NCBI GenBank assembly: GCA_000004985.1
Contig: GG739081.1
Strand: one strand, 5' to 3'
Length of the DNA: 8,205 bases
Source: Naegleria gruberi
Lineage: Eukaryota
The notes below the pieces were generated by a model. The model was not told the origin of the DNA, did no database searches, and was given only the letters and a program-made list of their open reading frames with translations. Position 1 is the first letter of the stretch. Each line of letters begins with the position of its first letter. Positions 1-8,205 of this stretch are shown here, one piece after another. Made by a program: the position numbers and the translations under genes.

Positions 1-542
1 AAAATCACTTGTTTGAAATGATTGACAGAAATATCCATTTGATATTTTAATAATATCTGTAAAACCTTCGAATTGATATTTCAAATTAGTTGTTTCATTT
101 GTTGAATCATCAATAACTGCTGTACCATGACTTCCACATCCACATCCCAATACTACACCTTGACTTGTTAGAAATTTAGTATCATCATAACCACAACTGA
201 CATCAATTGGTGTAAATTGTATTGGAAATTTCAATAATAAAGGTACTGAACTACTTTTAATACCTGCACAACATCCATTAGAATCAGATCCTGCAACATA
301 AACTTGAGAATTTCTTGTAATAAATACAGAATGAGTATTGTTAGCTCCTACTTTACAAATAGGTTGACCATCAAAATAATCACTTGGAAGTTTAACTGGT
401 TTCTTTTGAGATTCAGTATCTGAAATTCCCAATTGATTAGCTGAATTAGATCCATTTACAAATACTGAACCATCAATTGAAATGAAAATACTGTGATATC
501 CACCTCCAGCTCCGTCAATTATTTTATATTCATTGATGACAC
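1..542 (-). CDS. RCC1-like gene, exon 3 (partial; continues beyond window start)
   Basis: 180 codons with no stop end exactly in frame at position 1. Translation: GVINEYKIIDGAGGGYHSIFISIDGSVFVNGSNSANQLGISDTESQKKPVKLPSDYFDGQPICKVGANNTHSVFITRNSQVYVAGSDSNGCCAGIKSSSVPLLLKFPIQFTPIDVSCGYDDTKFLTSQGVVLGCGCGSHGTAVIDDSTNETTNLKYQFEGFTDIIKISNGYFCQSFQTSDF. The roughly 50-aa GxxH(S/T)...G.V...G.N..GQLG repeats indicate RCC1/BLIP-II-type propeller blades. Confidence 0.75.
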
Positions 543-618
543 CTATATTGTTGTTGTTGTTGTTGTAATTTGTTAACAAATGAATTTACAATCAAACTTA
601 TAATCATTAAAAACAAAC
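543..618 (-). other. intron 2 of the RCC1-like gene (76 nt, GTTTGT...ATATAG), containing a (TTG)6/(CAA)6 microsatellite
   Basis: Removing it joins 'gct gaa g' + 'gt gtc atc' into an uninterrupted RCC1 repeat frame that stays open to position 1. Its length mod 3 = 1 matches the frame offset. It is more than 80% A+T. The track ORF reads through it, giving LFLMIISLIVNSFVNKLQQQQQQYRCHQ* and then hitting a stop. Confidence 0.6.
548..565. repeat. (TTG)6 / (CAA)6 microsatellite inside intron 2
   Basis: Direct reading: ttgttgttgttgttgttg. Confidence 0.9.
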
Positions 619-762
619 CTTCAGCTCTAATGAGACCTCTAATTGGAGAACCACCTAATGCTCCAGATACTCCACAACATAATTCACCATGAGCATTTGT
701 TCCAAAACTCAAAATTCTTCCTTCGAATGTGATGAGATGAGTGTGATGACGACCAGAAATTA
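619..762 (-). CDS. RCC1-like gene, exon 2 (…VISGRHHTHLITFEGRILSFGTNAHGELCCGVSGALGGSPIRGLIRAEG)
   Basis: The frame is open with no stop. It carries the classic RCC1 repeat signature G-x-H-T-x-L-x-x-x-G-x-(I/V)-x-S-F-G-x-N-x-x-G-E-L. It is the real part of track ORF 530..712, which starts with TTG rather than ATG. Confidence 0.65.
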
Positions 763-853
763 CTAAATATCATGATTTTGTTCAACATCATTTTTACAGA
801 TATTATTATTATAAGACTAAATTTAACAAACGCAAATAACTAAAATTTCATAC
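763..853 (-). other. intron 1 of the RCC1-like gene (91 nt, GTATGA...TTTAG)
   Basis: The interval is AT-rich with GT/AG ends. Its length mod 3 = 1 accounts exactly for the frame change between exon 1 (codon tops ≡2 mod 3) and exon 2 (≡1). It contains in-frame stops. The joined codon g+ta = GTA (Val). Confidence 0.6.
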
Positions 854-1130
854 CTTTTACAACATTGATATTTGGTAAATGAACCACTTTTTGATAAATA
901 GCATCAGCAATCTTTGTAAGATCGGAATTAGTATCATCAATTTTAAAAGGTTCAAATTCTGAAACTGAAGTGGAAGAAACTTTGAATACGTGCTCTCCTG
1001 GAAATACAGCATGTGAAAGTGACATTAATTCACCAACAAGATATAACGTTGAACCTTGTTTGTTATTGTAAATGTTTAGCTTGTTTTCGTACATTTTTTT
1101 TATTTCAAAATTTGAATCAAAAGGATTCAT
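854..1130 (-). CDS. RCC1-repeat (regulator of chromosome condensation-like beta-propeller) protein, exon 1 (5' end uncertain)
   Basis: This is the track ORF 840..1130, MNPFDSNFEIKKMYENKL...NINVVK. Its C-terminal GMKF* tail is better explained as the start of an intron: the exon ends '...gta aaa g' and is followed by GTATGA at 853-848. The second ATG (M13, aaaaaaaATG) has the more A-rich context. Upstream of the first ATG the same frame stays open for 14 more codons (ARDLKRHQLNIKSK) before a TAA, so the true start could lie upstream or in the gap. Confidence 0.6.
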
Positions 1131-1212: not shown

Positions 1213-4200
1213 NNNNNNNNNNNNNNNNNNNNNNNNNNNNNNNNNNNNNNNNNNNNNNNNNNNNNNNNNNNNNNNNNNNNNNNNNNNNNNNNNNNNNNNN
1301 NNNNNNNNNNNNNNNNNNNNNNNNNNNNNNNNNNNNNNNNNNNNNNNNNNNNNNNNNNNNNNNNNNNNNNNNNNNNNNNNNNNNNNNNNNNNNNNNNNNN
1401 NNNNNNNNNNNNNNNNNNNNNNNNNNNNNNNNNNNNNNNNNNNNNNNNNNNNNNNNNNNNNNNNNNNNNNNNNNNNNNNNNNNNNNNNNNNNNNNNNNNN
1501 NNNNNNNNNNNNNNNNNNNNNNNNNNNNNNNNNNNNNNNNNNNNNNNNNNNNNNNNNNNNNNNNNNNNNNNNNNNNNNNNNNNNNNNNNNNNNNNNNNNN
1601 NNNNNNNNNNNNNNNNNNNNNNNNNNNNNNNNNNNNNNNNNNNNNNNNNNNNNNNNNNNNNNNNNNNNNNNNNNNNNNNNNNNNNNNNNNNNNNNNNNNN
1701 NNNNNNNNNNNNNNNNNNNNNNNNNNNNNNNNNNNNNNNNNNNNNNNNNNNNNNNNNNNNNNNNNNNNNNNNNNNNNNNNNNNNNNNNNNNNNNNNNNNN
1801 NNNNNNNNNNNNNNNNNNNNNNNNNNNNNNNNNNNNNNNNNNNNNNNNNNNNNNNNNNNNNNNNNNNNNNNNNNNNNNNNNNNNNNNNNNNNNNNNNNNN
1901 NNNNNNNNNNNNNNNNNNNNNNNNNNNNNNNNNNNNNNNNNNNNNNNNNNNNNNNNNNNNNNNNNNNNNNNNNNNNNNNNNNNNNNNNNNNNNNNNNNNN
2001 NNNNNNNNNNNNNNNNNNNNNNNNNNNNNNNNNNNNNNNNNNNNNNNNNNNNNNNNNNNNNNNNNNNNNNNNNNNNNNNNNNNNNNNNNNNNNNNNNNNN
2101 NNNNNNNNNNNNNNNNNNNNNNNNNNNNNNNNNNNNNNNNNNNNNNNNNNNNNNNNNNNNNNNNNNNNNNNNNNNNNNNNNNNNNNNNNNNNNNNNNNNN
2201 NNNNNNNNNNNNNNNNNNNNNNNNNNNNNNNNNNNNNNNNNNNNNNNNNNNNNNNNNNNNNNNNNNNNNNNNNNNNNNNNNNNNNNNNNNNNNNNNNNNN
2301 NNNNNNNNNNNNNNNNNNNNNNNNNNNNNNNNNNNNNNNNNNNNNNNNNNNNNNNNNNNNNNNNNNNNNNNNNNNNNNNNNNNNNNNNNNNNNNNNNNNN
2401 NNNNNNNNNNNNNNNNNNNNNNNNNNNNNNNNNNNNNNNNNNNNNNNNNNNNNNNNNNNNNNNNNNNNNNNNNNNNNNNNNNNNNNNNNNNNNNNNNNNN
2501 NNNNNNNNNNNNNNNNNNNNNNNNNNNNNNNNNNNNNNNNNNNNNNNNNNNNNNNNNNNNNNNNNNNNNNNNNNNNNNNNNNNNNNNNNNNNNNNNNNNN
2601 NNNNNNNNNNNNNNNNNNNNNNNNNNNNNNNNNNNNNNNNNNNNNNNNNNNNNNNNNNNNNNNNNNNNNNNNNNNNNNNNNNNNNNNNNNNNNNNNNNNN
2701 NNNNNNNNNNNNNNNNNNNNNNNNNNNNNNNNNNNNNNNNNNNNNNNNNNNNNNNNNNNNNNNNNNNNNNNNNNNNNNNNNNNNNNNNNNNNNNNNNNNN
2801 NNNNNNNNNNNNNNNNNNNNNNNNNNNNNNNNNNNNNNNNNNNNNNNNNNNNNNNNNNNNNNNNNNNNNNNNNNNNNNNNNNNNNNNNNNNNNNNNNNNN
2901 NNNNNNNNNNNNNNNNNNNNNNNNNNNNNNNNNNNNNNNNNNNNNNNNNNNNNNNNNNNNNNNNNNNNNNNNNNNNNNNNNNNNNNNNNNNNNNNNNNNN
3001 NNNNNNNNNNNNNNNNNNNNNNNNNNNNNNNNNNNNNNNNNNNNNNNNNNNNNNNNNNNNNNNNNNNNNNNNNNNNNNNNNNNNNNNNNNNNNNNNNNNN
3101 NNNNNNNNNNNNNNNNNNNNNNNNNNNNNNNNNNNNNNNNNNNNNNNNNNNNNNNNNNNNNNNNNNNNNNNNNNNNNNNNNNNNNNNNNNNNNNNNNNNN
3201 NNNNNNNNNNNNNNNNNNNNNNNNNNNNNNNNNNNNNNNNNNNNNNNNNNNNNNNNNNNNNNNNNNNNNNNNNNNNNNNNNNNNNNNNNNNNNNNNNNNN
3301 NNNNNNNNNNNNNNNNNNNNNNNNNNNNNNNNNNNNNNNNNNNNNNNNNNNNNNNNNNNNNNNNNNNNNNNNNNNNNNNNNNNNNNNNNNNNNNNNNNNN
3401 NNNNNNNNNNNNNNNNNNNNNNNNNNNNNNNNNNNNNNNNNNNNNNNNNNNNNNNNNNNNNNNNNNNNNNNNNNNNNNNNNNNNNNNNNNNNNNNNNNNN
3501 NNNNNNNNNNNNNNNNNNNNNNNNNNNNNNNNNNNNNNNNNNNNNNNNNNNNNNNNNNNNNNNNNNNNNNNNNNNNNNNNNNNNNNNNNNNNNNNNNNNN
3601 NNNNNNNNNNNNNNNNNNNNNNNNNNNNNNNNNNNNNNNNNNNNNNNNNNNNNNNNNNNNNNNNNNNNNNNNNNNNNNNNNNNNNNNNNNNNNNNNNNNN
3701 NNNNNNNNNNNNNNNNNNNNNNNNNNNNNNNNNNNNNNNNNNNNNNNNNNNNNNNNNNNNNNNNNNNNNNNNNNNNNNNNNNNNNNNNNNNNNNNNNNNN
3801 NNNNNNNNNNNNNNNNNNNNNNNNNNNNNNNNNNNNNNNNNNNNNNNNNNNNNNNNNNNNNNNNNNNNNNNNNNNNNNNNNNNNNNNNNNNNNNNNNNNN
3901 NNNNNNNNNNNNNNNNNNNNNNNNNNNNNNNNNNNNNNNNNNNNNNNNNNNNNNNNNNNNNNNNNNNNNNNNNNNNNNNNNNNNNNNNNNNNNNNNNNNN
4001 NNNNNNNNNNNNNNNNNNNNNNNNNNNNNNNNNNNNNNNNNNNNNNNNNNNNNNNNNNNNNNNNNNNNNNNNNNNNNNNNNNNNNNNNNNNNNNNNNNNN
4101 NNNNNNNNNNNNNNNNNNNNNNNNNNNNNNNNNNNNNNNNNNNNNNNNNNNNNNNNNNNNNNNNNNNNNNNNNNNNNNNNNNNNNNNNNNNNNNNNNNNN

Positions 4201-6034
4201 NNNNNNNNNNNNNNNNNNNNNNNNNNNNNNNNNNNNNNNNNNNNNNNNNNNNNNNNNNNNNNNNNNNNNNNNNNNNNNNNNNNNNNNNNNNNNNNNNNNN
4301 NNNNNNNNNNNNNNNNNNNNNNNNNNNNNNNNNNNNNNNNNNNNNNNNNNNNNNNNNNNNNNNNNNNNNNNNNNNNNNNNNNNNNNNNNNNNNNNNNNNN
4401 NNNNNNNNNNNNNNNNNNNNNNNNNNNNNNNNNNNNNNNNNNNNNNNNNNNNNNNNNNNNNNNNNNNNNNNNNNNNNNNNNNNNNNNNNNNNNNNNNNNN
4501 NNNNNNNNNNNNNNNNNNNNNNNNNNNNNNNNNNNNNNNNNNNNNNNNNNNNNNNNNNNNNNNNNNNNNNNNNNNNNNNNNNNNNNNNNNNNNNNNNNNN
4601 NNNNNNNNNNNNNNNNNNNNNNNNNNNNNNNNNNNNNNNNNNNNNNNNNNNNNNNNNNNNNNNNNNNNNNNNNNNNNNNNNNNNNNNNNNNNNNNNNNNN
4701 NNNNNNNNNNNNNNNNNNNNNNNNNNNNNNNNNNNNNNNNNNNNNNNNNNNNNNNNNNNNNNNNNNNNNNNNNNNNNNNNNNNNNNNNNNNNNNNNNNNN
4801 NNNNNNNNNNNNNNNNNNNNNNNNNNNNNNNNNNNNNNNNNNNNNNNNNNNNNNNNNNNNNNNNNNNNNNNNNNNNNNNNNNNNNNNNNNNNNNNNNNNN
4901 NNNNNNNNNNNNNNNNNNNNNNNNNNNNNNNNNNNNNNNNNNNNNNNNNNNNNNNNNNNNNNNNNNNNNNNNNNNNNNNNNNNNNNNNNNNNNNNNNNNN
5001 NNNNNNNNNNNNNNNNNNNNNNNNNNNNNNNNNNNNNNNNNNNNNNNNNNNNNNNNNNNNNNNNNNNNNNNNNNNNNNNNNNNNNNNNNNNNNNNNNNNN
5101 NNNNNNNNNNNNNNNNNNNNNNNNNNNNNNNNNNNNNNNNNNNNNNNNNNNNNNNNNNNNNNNNNNNNNNNNNNNNNNNNNNNNNNNNNNNNNNNNNNNN
5201 NNNNNNNNNNNNNNNNNNNNNNNNNNNNNNNNNNNNNNNNNNNNNNNNNNNNNNNNNNNNNNNNNNNNNNNNNNNNNNNNNNNNNNNNNNNNNNNNNNNN
5301 NNNNNNNNNNNNNNNNNNNNNNNNNNNNNNNNNNNNNNNNNNNNNNNNNNNNNNNNNNNNNNNNNNNNNNNNNNNNNNNNNNNNNNNNNNNNNNNNNNNN
5401 NNNNNNNNNNNNNNNNNNNNNNNNNNNNNNNNNNNNNNNNNNNNNNNNNNNNNNNNNNNNNNNNNNNNNNNNNNNNNNNNNNNNNNNNNNNNNNNNNNNN
5501 NNNNNNNNNNNNNNNNNNNNNNNNNNNNNNNNNNNNNNNNNNNNNNNNNNNNNNNNNNNNNNNNNNNNNNNNNNNNNNNNNNNNNNNNNNNNNNNNNNNN
5601 NNNNNNNNNNNNNNNNNNNNNNNNNNNNNNNNNNNNNNNNNNNNNNNNNNNNNNNNNNNNNNNNNNNNNNNNNNNNNNNNNNNNNNNNNNNNNNNNNNNN
5701 NNNNNNNNNNNNNNNNNNNNNNNNNNNNNNNNNNNNNNNNNNNNNNNNNNNNNNNNNNNNNNNNNNNNNNNNNNNNNNNNNNNNNNNNNNNNNNNNNNNN
5801 NNNNNNNNNNNNNNNNNNNNNNNNNNNNNNNNNNNNNNNNNNNNNNNNNNNNNNNNNNNNNNNNNNNNNNNNNNNNNNNNNNNNNNNNNNNNNNNNNNNN
5901 NNNNNNNNNNNNNNNNNNNNNNNNNNNNNNNNNNNNNNNNNNNNNNNNNNNNNNNNNNNNNNNNNNNNNNNNNNNNNNNNNNNNNNNNNNNNNNNNNNNN
6001 NNNNNNNNNNNNNNNNNNNNNNNNNNNNNNNNNN
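1213..6034. other. assembly gap (4,822 N)
   Basis: An uninterrupted run of n. The 1656-aa 'ORF' 1117..6087 exists only because N translates to X. Confidence 0.99.
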
Positions 6035-6089: not shown

Positions 6090-6359
6090 TTACCCTTCAT
6101 ATTTACATGGTGAATTTACTTGAATTAATTCAAATTCATTTATAGAATTATCATATATACATAAATAACAATGACGATAATGTCCAATTCCAACTAATTT
6201 ACAATCCCTTGAAACAGCAACAAGTGTATCCGAATAATTTAATAACCATTCATCATAGGATTTATCATCATTATCATTGGAACGATCATATATTTTTAAT
6301 TCCTTTCCGATCCAATTTAAAGAATGATCAATATTAAATGCCTTTTGAATTGTTTGCAT
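6090..6359 (-). CDS. small hypothetical protein / possible first coding exon (MQTIQKAFNIDHSLNWIGKELKIYDRSNDNDDKSYDEWLLNYSDTLVAVSRDCKLVGIGHYRHCYLCIYDNSINEFELIQVNSPCKYEG)
   Basis: The track ORF 6090..6455 is trimmed to the internal ATG at 6359-6357, which sits in a perfect A-rich context (aaaaaaaaATGcaa). The 32 residues upstream are translated from AT-rich low-complexity DNA. That leaves 89 codons with ordinary AT-rich-organism codon usage. The segment VAVSRDCKLVGIG weakly resembles GNAT acetyltransferase motif A, but this is not secure. Confidence 0.5.
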   Translation of the reverse strand: MQTIQKAFNIDHSLNWIGKELKIYDRSNDNDDKSYDEWLLNYSDTLVAVSRDCKLVGIGHYRHCYLCIYDNSINEFELIQVNSPCKYEG

Positions 6360-6465: not shown

Positions 6466-6609
6466 TTATTCCTCTAAAAAAAACTTCACCCGTTTTGTGT
6501 TGCCAGCTGAATCATGATCAGCACTCCAAACAGATGAACAAGTACTAAAACTGATATTATCCGATAATTTATTGGAAACAAAGTTAAAGTACTCCATATT
6601 AATTTCCAT
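6466..6609 (-). CDS. candidate small ORF or upstream exon (MEINMEYFNFVSNKLSDNISFSTCSSVWSADHDSAGNTKRVKFFLEE*)
   Basis: 47 codons with an ATG at 6609-6607. It lies partly in a locally GC-richer block, and rare codons (ggc, cgg, gtg) cluster at its 3' end. A plus-strand frame is also open over the same block (6429-6545), so strand assignment is ambiguous. It could splice (GTGAAG…AAAAG) onto the 6090..6359 CDS. Confidence 0.2.
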   Translation of the reverse strand: MEINMEYFNFVSNKLSDNISFSTCSSVWSADHDSAGNTKRVKFFLEE

Positions 6610-6611
6610 AA

Positions 6612-7687
6612 ATAGATACAATTCCAGAACTTGCTGGTATTACATATTTAACTACAGTTACAACTAATCAATTAAATAATTTAATAATTGCCATAACTAC
6701 CAAGAAACAATGTTATGTATTTGATTCAGAATGTAAATCATGGAAACTTAAATTTAAATTACCTTTATTTAGTTCTGTTCAGATTGACAGTCAATTTGAG
6801 AATGTTTATATTGGAACAAGAGATTGTATTAAGAAATATTAGATAATGTAACAGACTATTCAAAAGAATCTCCTATTTGGGAAAGTAAGATTAGTTCAAA
6901 GTATAAAATGAATTGTGCTAAATCAAAGAATGAAATGTATATCATACATAATATTAATACAATCTATGTAATGGATTTATTGAATGGATCAACAAAAAGA
7001 GAAATTAATTTAAATCAATCAGATTATAATAATATTGATGTATTATATGTGGATGAAAAGGAGGGACAGCTAAATTTCCCTCATTAATAATAAGAGAATA
7101 TGATGAGAATATGAAACCAGACTGTTTGCAATTTTTAAATGGTATTGATTTTGGAAATAAGAAGTTGTGGTTTGTTGATAATGAAATTGCTAAATACTTT
7201 GAATTTCAATTTGACTTTGAAAATGAGGTTCCAGATGGTCATGATGATGATATTGTAATCGGAGGAAGTTATGAATTTTTTGACAAATATCAAGTTTGTA
7301 TCTATGTAAGAAAATCAGAAGTTTCAAATAATTATGATTTTCCAGTATATTTACTTTACAACGAATCAGTCAATGATGATTTTATGAAAACAAAGAGTTT
7401 AACATTTTCAGAATTCATTCCAAAATTGAAATTATCTGAATCCGTTGTCATTGAGCATAACTGTTCATATGATTTATGAAGAATTGATTCAAAAATCAAT
7501 CATTCATCCTCAAACCAAACTTATTGATAATAATATCCTTGTTGAGAAGTATAAGAAAATGGTGTGTGGAGTCGACAAAGAGGATTACTTTGGATTAGCA
7601 CGAAAATTTAACAGCTCTACAATCAACTTTGATAATACTGTATTTCTAAAGATGGATTGTTGCCTTGGCCATGGATTGTTGTTCTGA
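6612..7687 (+). CDS. plus-strand coding region, hypothetical protein; four overlapping open segments in frames 0/2/1/2 (6612-6842, 6833-7087, 7057-7479, 7430-7687); possible pseudogene, draft-sequence frameshifts or unresolved introns
   Basis: By hand translation, segment 1 (frame 0, 76 codons, stop TAG at 6840) reads IDTIPELAGITYLTTVTTNQLNNLIIAITTKKQCYVFDSECKSWKLKFKLPLFSSVQIDSQFENVYIGTRDCIKKY*. Segment 2 (frame 2, 84 codons, stop TAA at 7085) reads …DNVTDYSKESPIWESKISSKYKMNCAKSKNEMYIIHNINTIYVMDLLNGSTKREINLNQSDYNNIDVLYVDEKEGQLNFPH*. Segment 3 is the track ORF 7111..7479 and is open from 7057. Segment 4 is the track ORF 7445..7687; it has a TTG start and is open from 7430. Four long stop-free segments on one strand are not expected by chance at about 80% A+T; each stop-free run of 76-84 codons has a chance probability below 0.001. 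The opposite strand is full of stops. Confidence 0.5.
7111..7479 (+). CDS. best-supported segment of the plus-strand gene (MKPDCLQFLNGIDFGNKKLWFVDNEIAKYFEFQFDFENEVPDGHDDDIVIGGSYEFFDKYQVCIYVRKSEVSNNYDFPVYLLYNESVNDDFMKTKSLTFSEFIPKLKLSESVVIEHNCSYDL)
   Basis: It is in the track with an ATG start, but the frame is open 18 codons upstream (KGGTAKFPSLIIREYDEN-M), so the ATG may be internal. Confidence 0.5.
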   Translation: MKPDCLQFLNGIDFGNKKLWFVDNEIAKYFEFQFDFENEVPDGHDDDIVIGGSYEFFDKYQVCIYVRKSEVSNNYDFPVYLLYNESVNDDFMKTKSLTFSEFIPKLKLSESVVIEHNCSYDL

Positions 7688-7743
7688 AATTTCGTTTTTA
7701 AAAACCAAATAAAAGAATAAGAACACGAAAAAATGGTTTAAAA

Positions 7744-7750
7744 GATAAAA
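7744..7750 (-). terminator. RNA polymerase III T-run terminator of the 5S gene (…gtcTTTTatcTTT)
   Basis: A T4 run sits directly after the 3' end of 5S helix I on the transcribed strand, and a second T3 run follows 3 nt later. Confidence 0.6.
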
Positions 7751-7870
7751 AGACTACAGCACCACAGGTTCCCAAGTTGTCTCCAACCTCAGTACTGATG
7801 TGGCTCGACGATGCTTAACTTCTCAAATCGGACGGGATGAGGTGCATTCATCGTGATATGGCCGTAGCCA
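7751..7870 (-). rRNA. 5S ribosomal RNA gene (about 119-120 nt)
   Basis: The minus strand reads tGGCTACGGCCATATCACGATGAATGCACCTCATCCCGTCCGATTTGAGAAGTTAAGCATCGTCGAGCCACATCAGTACTGAGGTTGGAGACAACTTGGGAACCTGTGGTGCTGTAGTCT. It carries the universal 5S blocks GGCCATA-C, CCCGTCCGAT, AAGTTAAGC, AGTACT, GGGAA and GGTGCTGTA. The 5' GGCTACGGC pairs with the 3' GCTGTAGTC over 9 bp, including two G·U pairs, forming helix I. It is immediately followed on the minus strand by TTTT (plus 7747-7750), a pol III terminator. Confidence 0.93.
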
Positions 7871-7888
7871 TCAACTACCTTGATTTCT

Positions 7889-7898
7889 GAAATATAAA
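7889..7898 (-). promoter_or_regulatory. TATA-like element (TTTATATTT) about 20-28 bp upstream of the 5S start
   Basis: On the minus strand the upstream sequence reads …gaactgaTTTATATTTcagaaatcaaggtagttga|tGGCTACGGCC. Upstream TATA-like boxes at about -25/-30 are required for 5S transcription in several fungi, plants and insects. Confidence 0.35.
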
Positions 7899-7969
7899 TC
7901 AGTTCACCCTTTGCATGGCTTCAGAACAATAACAAAGAAAGAGATAAAGGATATTACAATGTAATATAA

Positions 7970-8205
7970 TTAGGCCGAAAACAGACCTCTTTTATTCACC
8001 AGTGCATACGTATGTTTCTTCAATTGTTCATCTATAACTTTGTGAATTTGTTTACAACCCTCTATTGCATGTTCCAAAACCTTTTCAAATTGATCCAAAG
8101 ATAATTTCGAATCCATTTGTAATAAAGTGACCTTATCATGTTTTGGAAGAAGAGCAATTGGTACATCTGGACCACCAGCACAATCTTCAATATAATTAAA
8201 TCTGT
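7970..8205 (-). CDS. 3' end of a protein-coding gene (partial; continues beyond window end): …RFNYIEDCAGGPDVPIALLPKHDKVTLLQMDSKLSLDQFEKVLEHAIEGCKQIHKVIDEQLKKHTYALVNKRGLFSA*
   Basis: 78 codons with no stop end at TAA (7972-7970). The composition is coding-like at about 35% GC against a much more AT-rich background. It is not in the track because no start codon lies within the window. Confidence 0.6.
   Translation of the reverse strand, partial: RFNYIEDCAGGPDVPIALLPKHDKVTLLQMDSKLSLDQFEKVLEHAIEGCKQIHKVIDEQLKKHTYALVNKRGLFSA

What the first reader, a model, noticed from the sequence alone, without database searches (positions are those of the whole stretch)
7744..7900. Unannotated dispersed 5S rRNA gene between two convergent protein-coding genes
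A complete 5S rRNA with all conserved blocks, a 9-bp helix I and a T-run terminator lies on the minus strand at 7751-7870. It is invisible to an ORF track. It sits in the 280-bp space between the stop of the plus-strand gene (7687) and the stop of a minus-strand gene (7970). It is transcribed toward the plus gene's 3' end and has a TATA-like box at about -25. In Dictyostelium discoideum, whose codon usage and introns this window otherwise resembles, 5S is encoded on the extrachromosomal rDNA palindrome rather than dispersed. The central region of this 5S also differs from the D. discoideum 5S as I remember it. This makes it a useful taxonomic marker and a hint that the source is a different AT-rich lineage, or a dispersed or orphon copy.
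Basis: partly seen in the sequence, partly recalled or inferred. Interest (0 to 1): 0.55.

Follow-up and report, generated by a model that had tools for sequence, protein, structure and literature searches.

The report
Known chromosomal 5S rRNA gene, Naegleria
This is a genuine, complete 5S ribosomal RNA gene, one of about 279 copies scattered through the Naegleria gruberi nuclear genome; this exact copy was already listed in a 2012 paper, so it is real but ordinary.

Summary
Rfam RF00001 matches window 7751-7869 (minus strand) full length at 105.4 bits (gathering score 38). The five-helix fold is predicted from this sequence alone and is backed by covariation with related 5S genes. A T5 run follows the 3' end, and a TATA-like box lies at -29 to -21.

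The source is not a dictyostelid. An exon in the window is 100% identical to a Naegleria gruberi protein whose contig is 8205 bp long, the same length as the window.

Table S1 of Feng et al. 2012 (PMC3369914) lists 279 putative N. gruberi 5S genes. One row reads scaffold_269, 7750-7866, which is this copy.

Those coordinates span 117 scaffolds. The median gap between neighbouring copies is about 34 kb, with no repeating period.

Three corrections:
- The plus-strand neighbour is a frameshifted, internally deleted copy of a 587-aa paralogue. It is probably a pseudogene.
- The -25 TATA is not conserved in a related organism. A short AGAWWT block near -19 to -12 is conserved.
- The literature coordinates omit the first three bases of helix I.

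Verdict: already known, low interest.

The parts
7751..7869 (-). 5S ribosomal RNA gene, 119 nt, 51% G+C in a scaffold of about 30% G+C
   Evidence: Rfam RF00001 at 105.4 bits, full length. The fold has five helices. Covariation supports all five helices. It coincides with row scaffold_269 7750-7866 of Table S1 in PMC3369914.
7747..7751 (-). T5 run at the 3' end of the gene; inferred RNA polymerase III terminator
   Evidence: Read directly from the sequence. Every other full-length copy examined also ends in a T4-T5 run. TTTT occurs in only 3.1% of 6-nt windows elsewhere in the scaffold. The terminator function is inferred from the established behaviour of Pol III at T runs.
7728..7743 (-). Two further T runs (T4 at 7743-7740, T6 at 7733-7728); possible back-up terminators
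   Evidence: Read directly from the sequence. Function is inferred.
7806..7820 (-). Box A of the internal control region (+50 to +64)
   Evidence: The pattern NSYYAANC used by Feng et al. 2012 matches exactly once, at +50. The paper reports an internal control region in N. gruberi 5S genes.
7773..7790 (-). Box C-like segment (+80 to +97), GAGGTTGGAGACAACTTG
   Evidence: This is the best match to NNGRTGGGNGWCCNYNNG, with 2 mismatches. It coincides with helices IV-V, so its conservation could reflect RNA structure alone.
7890..7898 (-). TATA-like box TTTATATTT at -29 to -21
   Evidence: A TATA box is reported for N. gruberi 5S genes in PMC3369914. It is not conserved in the L006/L007 copies.
7883..7888 (-). 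AGAAAT block at -19 to -14; candidate upstream promoter element
   Evidence: An AGA[AT][AT]T block occurs at -19 to -14 (window, L002) or -17 to -12 (L006/L007) in all six aligned copies. The background frequency is 0.9% of 8-nt windows. There are only three independent lineages, so this is suggestive only.
7970..8203 (-). Last exon of an exosome RNase PH (Rrp41-like) gene, cut by the scaffold end. Its stop codon lies 100 nt upstream of the 5S start, on the same strand.
   Evidence: Pfam RNase_PH_C, E = 7.7e-06. It is 97% identical to P0002. Rrp41-named homologues appear.
6500..7700 (+). Frameshifted, internally deleted copy of a 480-590 aa gene family; probable pseudogene. It converges on the 5S gene.
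   Evidence: tblastn of P0107 gives 7 pieces in frames 2,1,3,2,1,2,3 at 70-79% identity over the main pieces. P0107 residues 237-363 are missing, and homology reaches 7700. The family was detected.

Best explanation
Window 7751-7869 (minus strand) is one member of the dispersed nuclear 5S rRNA gene family of Naegleria gruberi. It sits on assembly scaffold_269.

Shown here: it has the full 5S sequence and fold, an exact box A, a box C-like segment, a T5 run at its 3' end and AT-rich upstream motifs.

Inferred: RNA polymerase III transcribes it from the minus strand, starting at or near 7869. The internal control region recruits TFIIIC and TFIIIB, and the upstream AT-rich element helps to place TBP/Brf. 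Termination occurs in the T5 run. The 119-nt RNA binds ribosomal protein uL18 (L5) and enters the central protuberance of the large ribosomal subunit.

The copy lies in a 282-bp spacer, 100 nt downstream of an Rrp41-like gene on the same strand. It faces the 3' end of a decayed paralogue on the other strand.
For: Gene identity: Rfam 105.4 bits, full length. The sequence folds alone into the 5S fold.

Covariation: five 5S genes from three or more lineages give 95.7% paired cells and 16 of 37 pairs with compensatory change. None of 500 shuffles reaches these values, and slid controls give 27-45% paired.

Organism: an RCC1-like exon is 100% identical to an NCBI 'predicted protein, partial [Naegleria gruberi]' whose contig is 8205 bp, the window length.

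Prior record: PMC3369914 reports 279 putative 5S genes in N. gruberi, not linked to the rDNA unit, with an internal control region and a TATA box. Its Table S1 has the row scaffold_269 7750-7866.

Dispersal: the 279 rows lie on 117 scaffolds. The median spacing between neighbours is 33.9 kb, only one pair is closer than 1 kb, and there is no common period.

Independent copy: metagenome contig L002 carries a 5S that is 99.2% identical. Homology between L002 and the window covers only 129 bp, window 7748-7876. L002's 5S lies upstream of, and divergent from, a different 361-aa ORF.

Promoter and terminator: box A is exact at +50, the box C-like segment has 2 mismatches, TATA lies at -27 and a T5 run is present.

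Ribosomal DNA circle: the N. gruberi rDNA circle is described as encoding 18S, 5.8S and 28S only.
Against: No expression data could be consulted, so activity of this particular copy is inferred. It carries U at position 24 (loop B), where L002 and the L006/L007 copies have A. It sits on a small scaffold with a 4822-N gap, next to a probable pseudogene, so it could lie in a decaying or poorly assembled region. Feng et al. found no TFIIIA in N. gruberi, so the factor that reads the internal control region is unknown. Box C departs from the vertebrate consensus at two positions.
Confidence: 0.9

Rival explanations
1. The copy is a silent orphon or pseudogene. It looks like a 5S gene but contributes no RNA to ribosomes.
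For: Table S1 contains degenerate and truncated entries: 15 of 279 are shorter than 110 nt. The neighbouring plus-strand gene is decayed. The scaffold is small and gapped. There is one substitution (U24) relative to L002 and the L006/L007 copies.
Against: The copy is full length with every helix intact. It has an exact box A, a T5 terminator and upstream AT-rich motifs. It differs from an independent copy (L002) at 1 of 119 positions, in an unpaired loop. It falls in the modal similarity class (0.75, 117 nt) of Table S1, which by hand count holds about 160 of the 279 rows.
Confidence: 0.1
2. The 5S is expressed as the second half of a tRNA-5S dicistronic Pol III unit, as in Yarrowia lipolytica, which would explain the reported lack of TFIIIA.
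For: TFIIIA was not found in N. gruberi. Y. lipolytica has dispersed 5S genes, and 48 of 108 are fused 3' of tRNA genes.
Against: ARAGORN finds no tRNA gene anywhere in the window, nor in L002, L006 or L007. The 100 nt upstream of the 5S is the tail of the Rrp41-like gene and an AT-rich spacer.
Confidence: 0.01
3. The copy is a retroposed 5S transcript or a 5S-derived SINE, which would account for dispersal of a unit barely longer than the RNA.
For: Homology between the window and L002 stops 7 nt upstream and 3 nt downstream of the gene. The family has hundreds of scattered copies.
Against: No direct repeats of 7 nt or more flank the gene, and there is no A-rich tail (sequence). The copy keeps a short conserved upstream block outside the RNA. 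In the relative L006, the repeated unit includes about 110 bp of flanking DNA, mostly upstream, that is outside the RNA. That flank points to DNA-level duplication.
Confidence: 0.04
4. The segment is part of a protein-coding exon read on the plus strand.
For: Gene models elsewhere do run through antisense 5S sequence. P0110 ends in KKTTTPQVPKLSPTSVLMLDDA, the antisense translation of a 5S gene. An ORF in L002 also reads into its 5S.
Against: In the window the plus-strand frames across 7751-7869 contain stops. Homology to the intact paralogue P0107 ends at 7700. The RNA-level evidence is overwhelming.
Confidence: 0.01

Closest known systems
The N. gruberi 5S rRNA gene family catalogued by Feng et al. 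2012 (PLoS One 7:e36878, PMC3369914), Table S1 row R33683
   Same: It is the same locus: scaffold_269 7750-7866 against Rfam 7751-7869 in an 8205-bp scaffold. The paper reports the same features: an internal control region, a TATA box, T-run terminators and no linkage to the rDNA unit.
   Different: The paper's BLAST-derived limits omit the first three bases, GGC at 7869-7867. These bases pair in helix I, and one of the three pairs covaries. The paper marks the family as 'tandem', but its own coordinates show a dispersed family with loose clusters.
Dispersed 5S rRNA genes of Schizosaccharomyces pombe and Yarrowia lipolytica (Acker et al. 2008, PMC2566860)
   Same: There are on the order of a hundred or more copies scattered through the chromosomes, outside the rDNA unit, each with its own Pol III signals.
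   Different: There are no tRNA-5S fusions here. The large rRNA genes of Naegleria are on an extrachromosomal circle, not in a chromosomal array.
[quoted passage not shown]
   Same: Both hosts are AT-rich amoeboid protists whose large rRNA genes are extrachromosomal.
   Different: In D. discoideum the 5S gene travels with the rDNA element. In N. gruberi it is chromosomal and dispersed. The organisms are unrelated: Heterolobosea against Amoebozoa (established taxonomy).
Vertebrate and yeast type 1 Pol III promoter (box A, intermediate element, box C, read by TFIIIA)
   Same: Box A is exact at +50, a box C-like segment lies at +80, and a T-run terminator is present.
   Different: Box C has two mismatches. 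TFIIIA was reported as not found in N. gruberi. Short upstream motifs may carry more of the promoter function; this is inference.

Membership tests
5S rRNA (Rfam RF00001) | Covariance-model score at or above the curated gathering score, over the full model | tested here: met
   105.4 bits against a gathering score of 38, model positions 1-120, not truncated.
5S rRNA (Rfam RF00001) | Three-way junction with helices I-V | tested here: met
   The minimum-free-energy fold of the single sequence gives all helices. On five sequences 95.7% of cells are paired, and every helix has 2-4 pairs with compensatory change.
5S rRNA (Rfam RF00001) | Length near 120 nt with conserved loop sequences (loop A CCAUA, loop C, loop E region) | tested here: met
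   The gene is 119 nt. The cmscan alignment shows the conserved loop residues at high posterior probability.
5S rRNA (Rfam RF00001) | Transcribed and incorporated into the large ribosomal subunit | not testable with these tools
   No RNA-seq or ribosome data are available here.
Type 1 RNA polymerase III gene | Box A of the internal control region near +50 | tested here: met
   NSYYAANC matches exactly once, at +50.
Type 1 RNA polymerase III gene | Intermediate element and box C near +67 to +97 | tested here: inconclusive
   The intermediate-element pattern is too degenerate to be informative, with 11 hits in 119 nt. The best box C match is at +80 with 2 mismatches.
Type 1 RNA polymerase III gene | Terminator of four or more T directly after the gene | tested here: met
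   A T5 run at 7751-7747. T4-T5 runs follow all other full-length copies.
Type 1 RNA polymerase III gene | Recognition by TFIIIA | not testable with these tools
   Feng et al. 2012 found no TFIIIA in N. gruberi by BLASTp or PSI-BLAST. This was not re-examined here.
Dispersed (non-tandem, non-rDNA-linked) 5S organisation | Copies not arranged head to tail with a fixed short period | tested here: met
   Table S1 coordinates cover 117 scaffolds, with a median neighbour distance of 33.9 kb, 1 of 162 distances under 1 kb and no recurrent period. There is no second 5S in the readable 3.4 kb of the window. No tandem array lies near it.
Dispersed (non-tandem, non-rDNA-linked) 5S organisation | Not on the 18S-5.8S-28S unit | tested here: met
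   The gene is flanked by intron-containing nuclear genes. The 14-kb rDNA circle is described as carrying 5.8S, 18S and 28S only. Table 1 of PMC3369914 says it is not located with rDNA units.
tRNA-5S dicistronic genes (Yarrowia type) | A tRNA gene immediately 5' of the 5S gene | tested here: not met
   ARAGORN finds 0 tRNA genes in the window and in L002, L006 and L007.
5S-derived retroposon or retropseudogene | Flanking target-site duplications and a 3' A-rich tail | tested here: not met
   No flanking direct repeat of 7 nt or more. The 3' flank is T-rich on the RNA strand.

The most novel reading that the evidence does not exclude
Naegleria keeps hundreds of scattered 5S genes nearly identical as a unit barely longer than the RNA: 129 bp are shared between the window and L002. 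It may also transcribe them without a recognisable TFIIIA, using a short upstream AGAWWT-type element about 12-19 nt before the start. This would be a lineage-specific Pol III promoter design, coupled with gene conversion or a DNA-level copying process that has not been described.
Probability: 0.1. Interest if true: 0.45.

Novelty: already known. Interest (0 to 1): 0.1.

Why it matters
Its main value is as a check and a label. The hit shows that the scaffold comes from Naegleria gruberi, not a dictyostelid. It also shows that ORF-only tracks miss a gene that is already in the literature.

Two small points are useful to people working on Naegleria:
[quoted passage not shown] That is not true of 5S.
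- The published 5S coordinates are three bases short at the 5' end, and the family is dispersed, not tandem as the paper's table says.

None of this changes how 5S genes are understood.

Tried and rejected
Look-ups that found nothing:
- Exact-protein look-ups to fetch the public record or paralogous loci found nothing on record. The queries were an 89-aa window ORF, P0002, P0001, P0110 and P0107.
- Two scans of viral contigs with 5S patterns gave no match.
- Clark and Cross 1987 and Fritz-Laylin et al. 2010 are not held in the paper library.
- A search for later work on TFIIIA in Naegleria found nothing beyond the 2012 paper.

Scans that returned other organisms:
- The scan of bacterial and archaeal genomes returned only unrelated eukaryotic contamination.
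- The single metagenome scan gave one close copy (L002) and four 5S genes from a G+C-richer organism. These served for covariation but not for flank comparison.

Synteny test: Rrp41 homologues were fetched in ten contigs. None has a 5S in the spacer downstream of Rrp41. L006/L007 have 5S genes upstream of Rrp41 and about 6.6 kb downstream instead. The position is therefore not conserved.

Neighbouring plus-strand ORFs: they gave no convincing Pfam or PDB match.

Other checks: a sub-threshold snoZ165 match at 6204-6264 (24.8 bits against a gathering score of 90, E = 0.51) was dismissed as chance. I could not compare the sequence with the D. discoideum 5S because no copy of that sequence was available.

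Full report

Yes. A scan of the whole window against Rfam 15 returns a single hit above gathering score. It is RF00001 (5S rRNA) at 7751-7869 on the minus strand, at 105.4 bits against a gathering score of 38, E = 5.7e-23. It covers model positions 1-120 and is not truncated. A permissive scan adds only one chance-level snoRNA match.

The 119-nt RNA folds on its own into the classical three-way junction with a 9-bp helix I (-41.5 kcal/mol, z = -2.6). The gene is 51% G+C in a scaffold of about 30% G+C.

On the RNA strand the gene ends in a T5 run (7751-7747), followed by T4 and T6 runs. Upstream lies TTTATATTT at -29 to -21, with TATA at -27 to -24.

The minus-strand ORF stops at 7972-7970 and a plus-strand ORF ends at 7687.

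**2. Where does the window come from?**

The window has a run of 4822 N (1213-6034), so only about 3.4 kb is readable. Short GT...AG introns and a CAA repeat show that it is eukaryotic.

An RCC1-like exon at the left end is 100% identical to an NCBI protein named 'predicted protein, partial [Naegleria gruberi]'. That protein's only contig is 8205 bp, exactly the window length. The window is therefore a whole small scaffold of the N. gruberi assembly. It is not a dictyostelid.

**3. Is it already known?**

Yes. Feng et al. 2012 (PMC3369914) searched the JGI N. gruberi assembly by BLASTn and reported 279 putative 5S genes. They describe these as not located with the rDNA unit, and as having an internal control region, a TATA box and T-run terminators. 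They found no TFIIIA, but did find TFIIIB and TFIIIC.

Their Table S1 contains the row 'R33683, scaffold_269, 7750-7866, similarity 0.75'. This coincides with the Rfam hit in an 8205-bp scaffold, so this very copy is catalogued. It falls in the modal class of the table. By my hand count about 160 of the 279 rows share the value 0.75.

**4. Tandem, orphon or dispersed?**

I computed spacing from the Table S1 coordinates:
- The 279 entries lie on 117 scaffolds, and 57 scaffolds carry a single copy.
- The 162 neighbour distances have a median of 33.9 kb, with quartiles of 8.8 and 77 kb.
- Only one distance is under 1 kb and 22 are under 3 kb.
- No period recurs.

This is a dispersed family with some loose clusters. 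The 'tandem: Y' entry in the paper's Table 1 is not borne out by its own coordinates.

The large rRNA genes of Naegleria are on a 14-kb extrachromosomal circle carrying 18S, 5.8S and 28S. [quoted passage not shown] The 5S family is the exception to that statement.

**5. Related copies and what they show**

One metagenome scan with a two-block 5S pattern gave five contigs. L002 carries a 5S that differs from the window's at one position, A instead of U24 in loop B. Homology between L002 and the window is limited to 129 bp (window 7748-7876). That is the gene plus 7 nt upstream and 3 nt downstream. In L002 the neighbour is a different gene, a 361-aa ORF. L002 is therefore a paralogous locus in a close relative, and the shared unit is hardly longer than the RNA.

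Rrp41 homologues led to ten further contigs. Two of them, L006 and L007, come from one JGI sample. Their Rrp41 C-terminus is about 60% identical to the window's, and their 5S is 78% identical. Each holds two 5S genes: one upstream of and divergent from Rrp41, and one about 6.6 kb downstream of Rrp41. The spacer downstream of Rrp41 there holds an HD-domain gene, not a 5S. The 5S position is therefore not conserved, although scattered 5S genes are.

In L006 the two loci share 230 bp at 92% identity, which is the gene plus about 110 bp of flank, mostly upstream.

**6. Structure**

I aligned five 5S genes: the window, L002, two from L006 and the G+C-rich L005. The consensus structure has 37 pairs in five helices. 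Of all cells, 95.7% form standard pairs, against 27-45% when partners are slid by 1-3 columns. Sixteen pairs keep pairing through changes on both sides, and none of 500 shuffles reaches that number.

Of the first three helix I pairs, G1-C118 is invariant, G2-U117 changes on both sides in one sequence and is unpaired in another, and C3-G116 covaries as CG/AU/UA. The RNA most likely starts at 7869. The start at 7866 implied by the 2012 coordinates is three bases too short.

**7. Promoter and terminator signals**

The box A pattern used by Feng et al. matches exactly once, at +50. The best box C match is at +80 with two mismatches. The intermediate-element pattern is too degenerate to be informative.

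The -25 TATA of the window is not conserved. L002 has TTATAG at -23 to -18, and L006/L007 have CATATAG near -45.

All six aligned copies do share an AGA[AT][AT]T block, at -19 to -14 in the window and L002 and at -17 to -12 in L006/L007. Its background frequency is 0.9% of 8-nt windows. With only three independent lineages and a motif defined after seeing the data, this is a lead and not a result.

All full-length copies end in a T4-T5 run.

**8. Mechanism**

Shown: this is a complete 5S gene with Pol III-type signals.

Inferred from established knowledge of type 1 Pol III genes: transcription runs from about 7869 to the T5 run. The internal control region directs assembly of TFIIIC and TFIIIB, with help from the upstream AT-rich element. 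The RNA then binds uL18 and joins the large subunit.

Unknown: which factor reads the internal control region, given that TFIIIA was reported missing.

**9. Rivals**

- A tRNA-5S fusion is excluded, because no tRNA gene is present.
- Retroposition hallmarks are absent. There is no flanking direct repeat of 7 nt or more and no A tail.
- A coding reading is excluded by stop codons, and homology to the intact paralogue ends at 7700.
- A silent copy cannot be excluded without RNA data. It is unlikely, given the intact structure and signals and near-identity to an independent copy.

**10. The neighbours**

The minus-strand neighbour is the last exon of an RNase PH / Rrp41-like exosome subunit. Its stop codon is 100 nt upstream of the 5S start on the same strand, so the 5S promoter region lies within or just past that gene's 3' end.

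The plus-strand 'gene' belongs to a small family of 480-590 aa proteins. The closest member, P0107 (587 aa), aligns to 6500-7700 in seven pieces in frames 2,1,3,2,1,2,3 at about 70-79% identity over the main pieces. Residues 237-363 of P0107 are missing. This is a pseudogene or a badly assembled copy, so 'between two convergent protein-coding genes' is only half right.

**11. Verdict**

This is a real, complete, correctly interpreted 5S rRNA gene. It is an ordinary member of a family that has been published, including this copy. Novelty: already known. Interest: low.

Noticed in passing
window 6500-7700 (+): The plus-strand ORFs are pieces of one decayed gene. The intact 587-aa paralogue P0107 aligns in seven pieces with six frame changes, and about 127 residues are missing. 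Homology runs to 7700, not 7687. It is a probable pseudogene or an assembly error in a small scaffold.
   Followed up: partly
protein P0110; compare window 7738-7815 (+): A 477-aa member of the same family ends in KKTTTPQVPKLSPTSVLMLDDA, which is the antisense translation of a 5S gene. A gene model elsewhere therefore runs into a convergent 5S at the truncated 3' end of a paralogue. This may be coincidence, an old gene-plus-5S duplication or a 5S insertion. The DNA could not be fetched.
   Followed up: partly
window 7883-7888 (-); L002, L006 and L007 upstream regions: An AGA[AT][AT]T block 12-19 nt before the 5S start is shared by all six copies examined, whereas the -25 TATA is not. It is a candidate upstream Pol III element in an organism reported to lack TFIIIA.
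   Followed up: partly
L006 759-877 and 8574-8692; L007 1-112 and 6827-6945: An unidentified relative has two 5S genes within 8 kb. The two loci share about 110 bp of flanking sequence, mostly upstream, so its repeated unit is promoter plus gene. In the N. gruberi-type copies the shared unit is only the gene plus a few bases.
   Followed up: partly
window 7866-7869 (-): The published coordinates for this copy (7750-7866) omit the first three bases, GGC. These bases pair in helix I, and one of the three pairs covaries, so the 5' end is better placed at 7869.
   Followed up: yes
window 1213-6034: A run of 4822 N makes up 59% of the scaffold. Anything in the gap, including further 5S copies, is invisible.
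   Followed up: no
L016 and L018 (contig CBDHDT010000127.1, labelled as an Ekhidna sp. MAG): A contig filed under a bacterial metagenome-assembled genome carries a tandem array of eukaryotic 5S rRNA and U1 snRNA genes with a period of about 2.14 kb. It holds seven 5S and seven U1 copies. This is eukaryotic contamination of the bin.
   Followed up: partly
literature (PMC5805870 and related announcements): [quoted passage not shown] The chromosomal 5S family contradicts that wording.
   Followed up: yes
window 1-1130 (-): An RCC1-like repeat gene with at least two short introns, one containing a CAA repeat, is annotated at NCBI as a partial protein (P0001). The RCC1-like genes near Rrp41 in L006/L007 are only about 30% identical, so synteny is not established.
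   Followed up: partly
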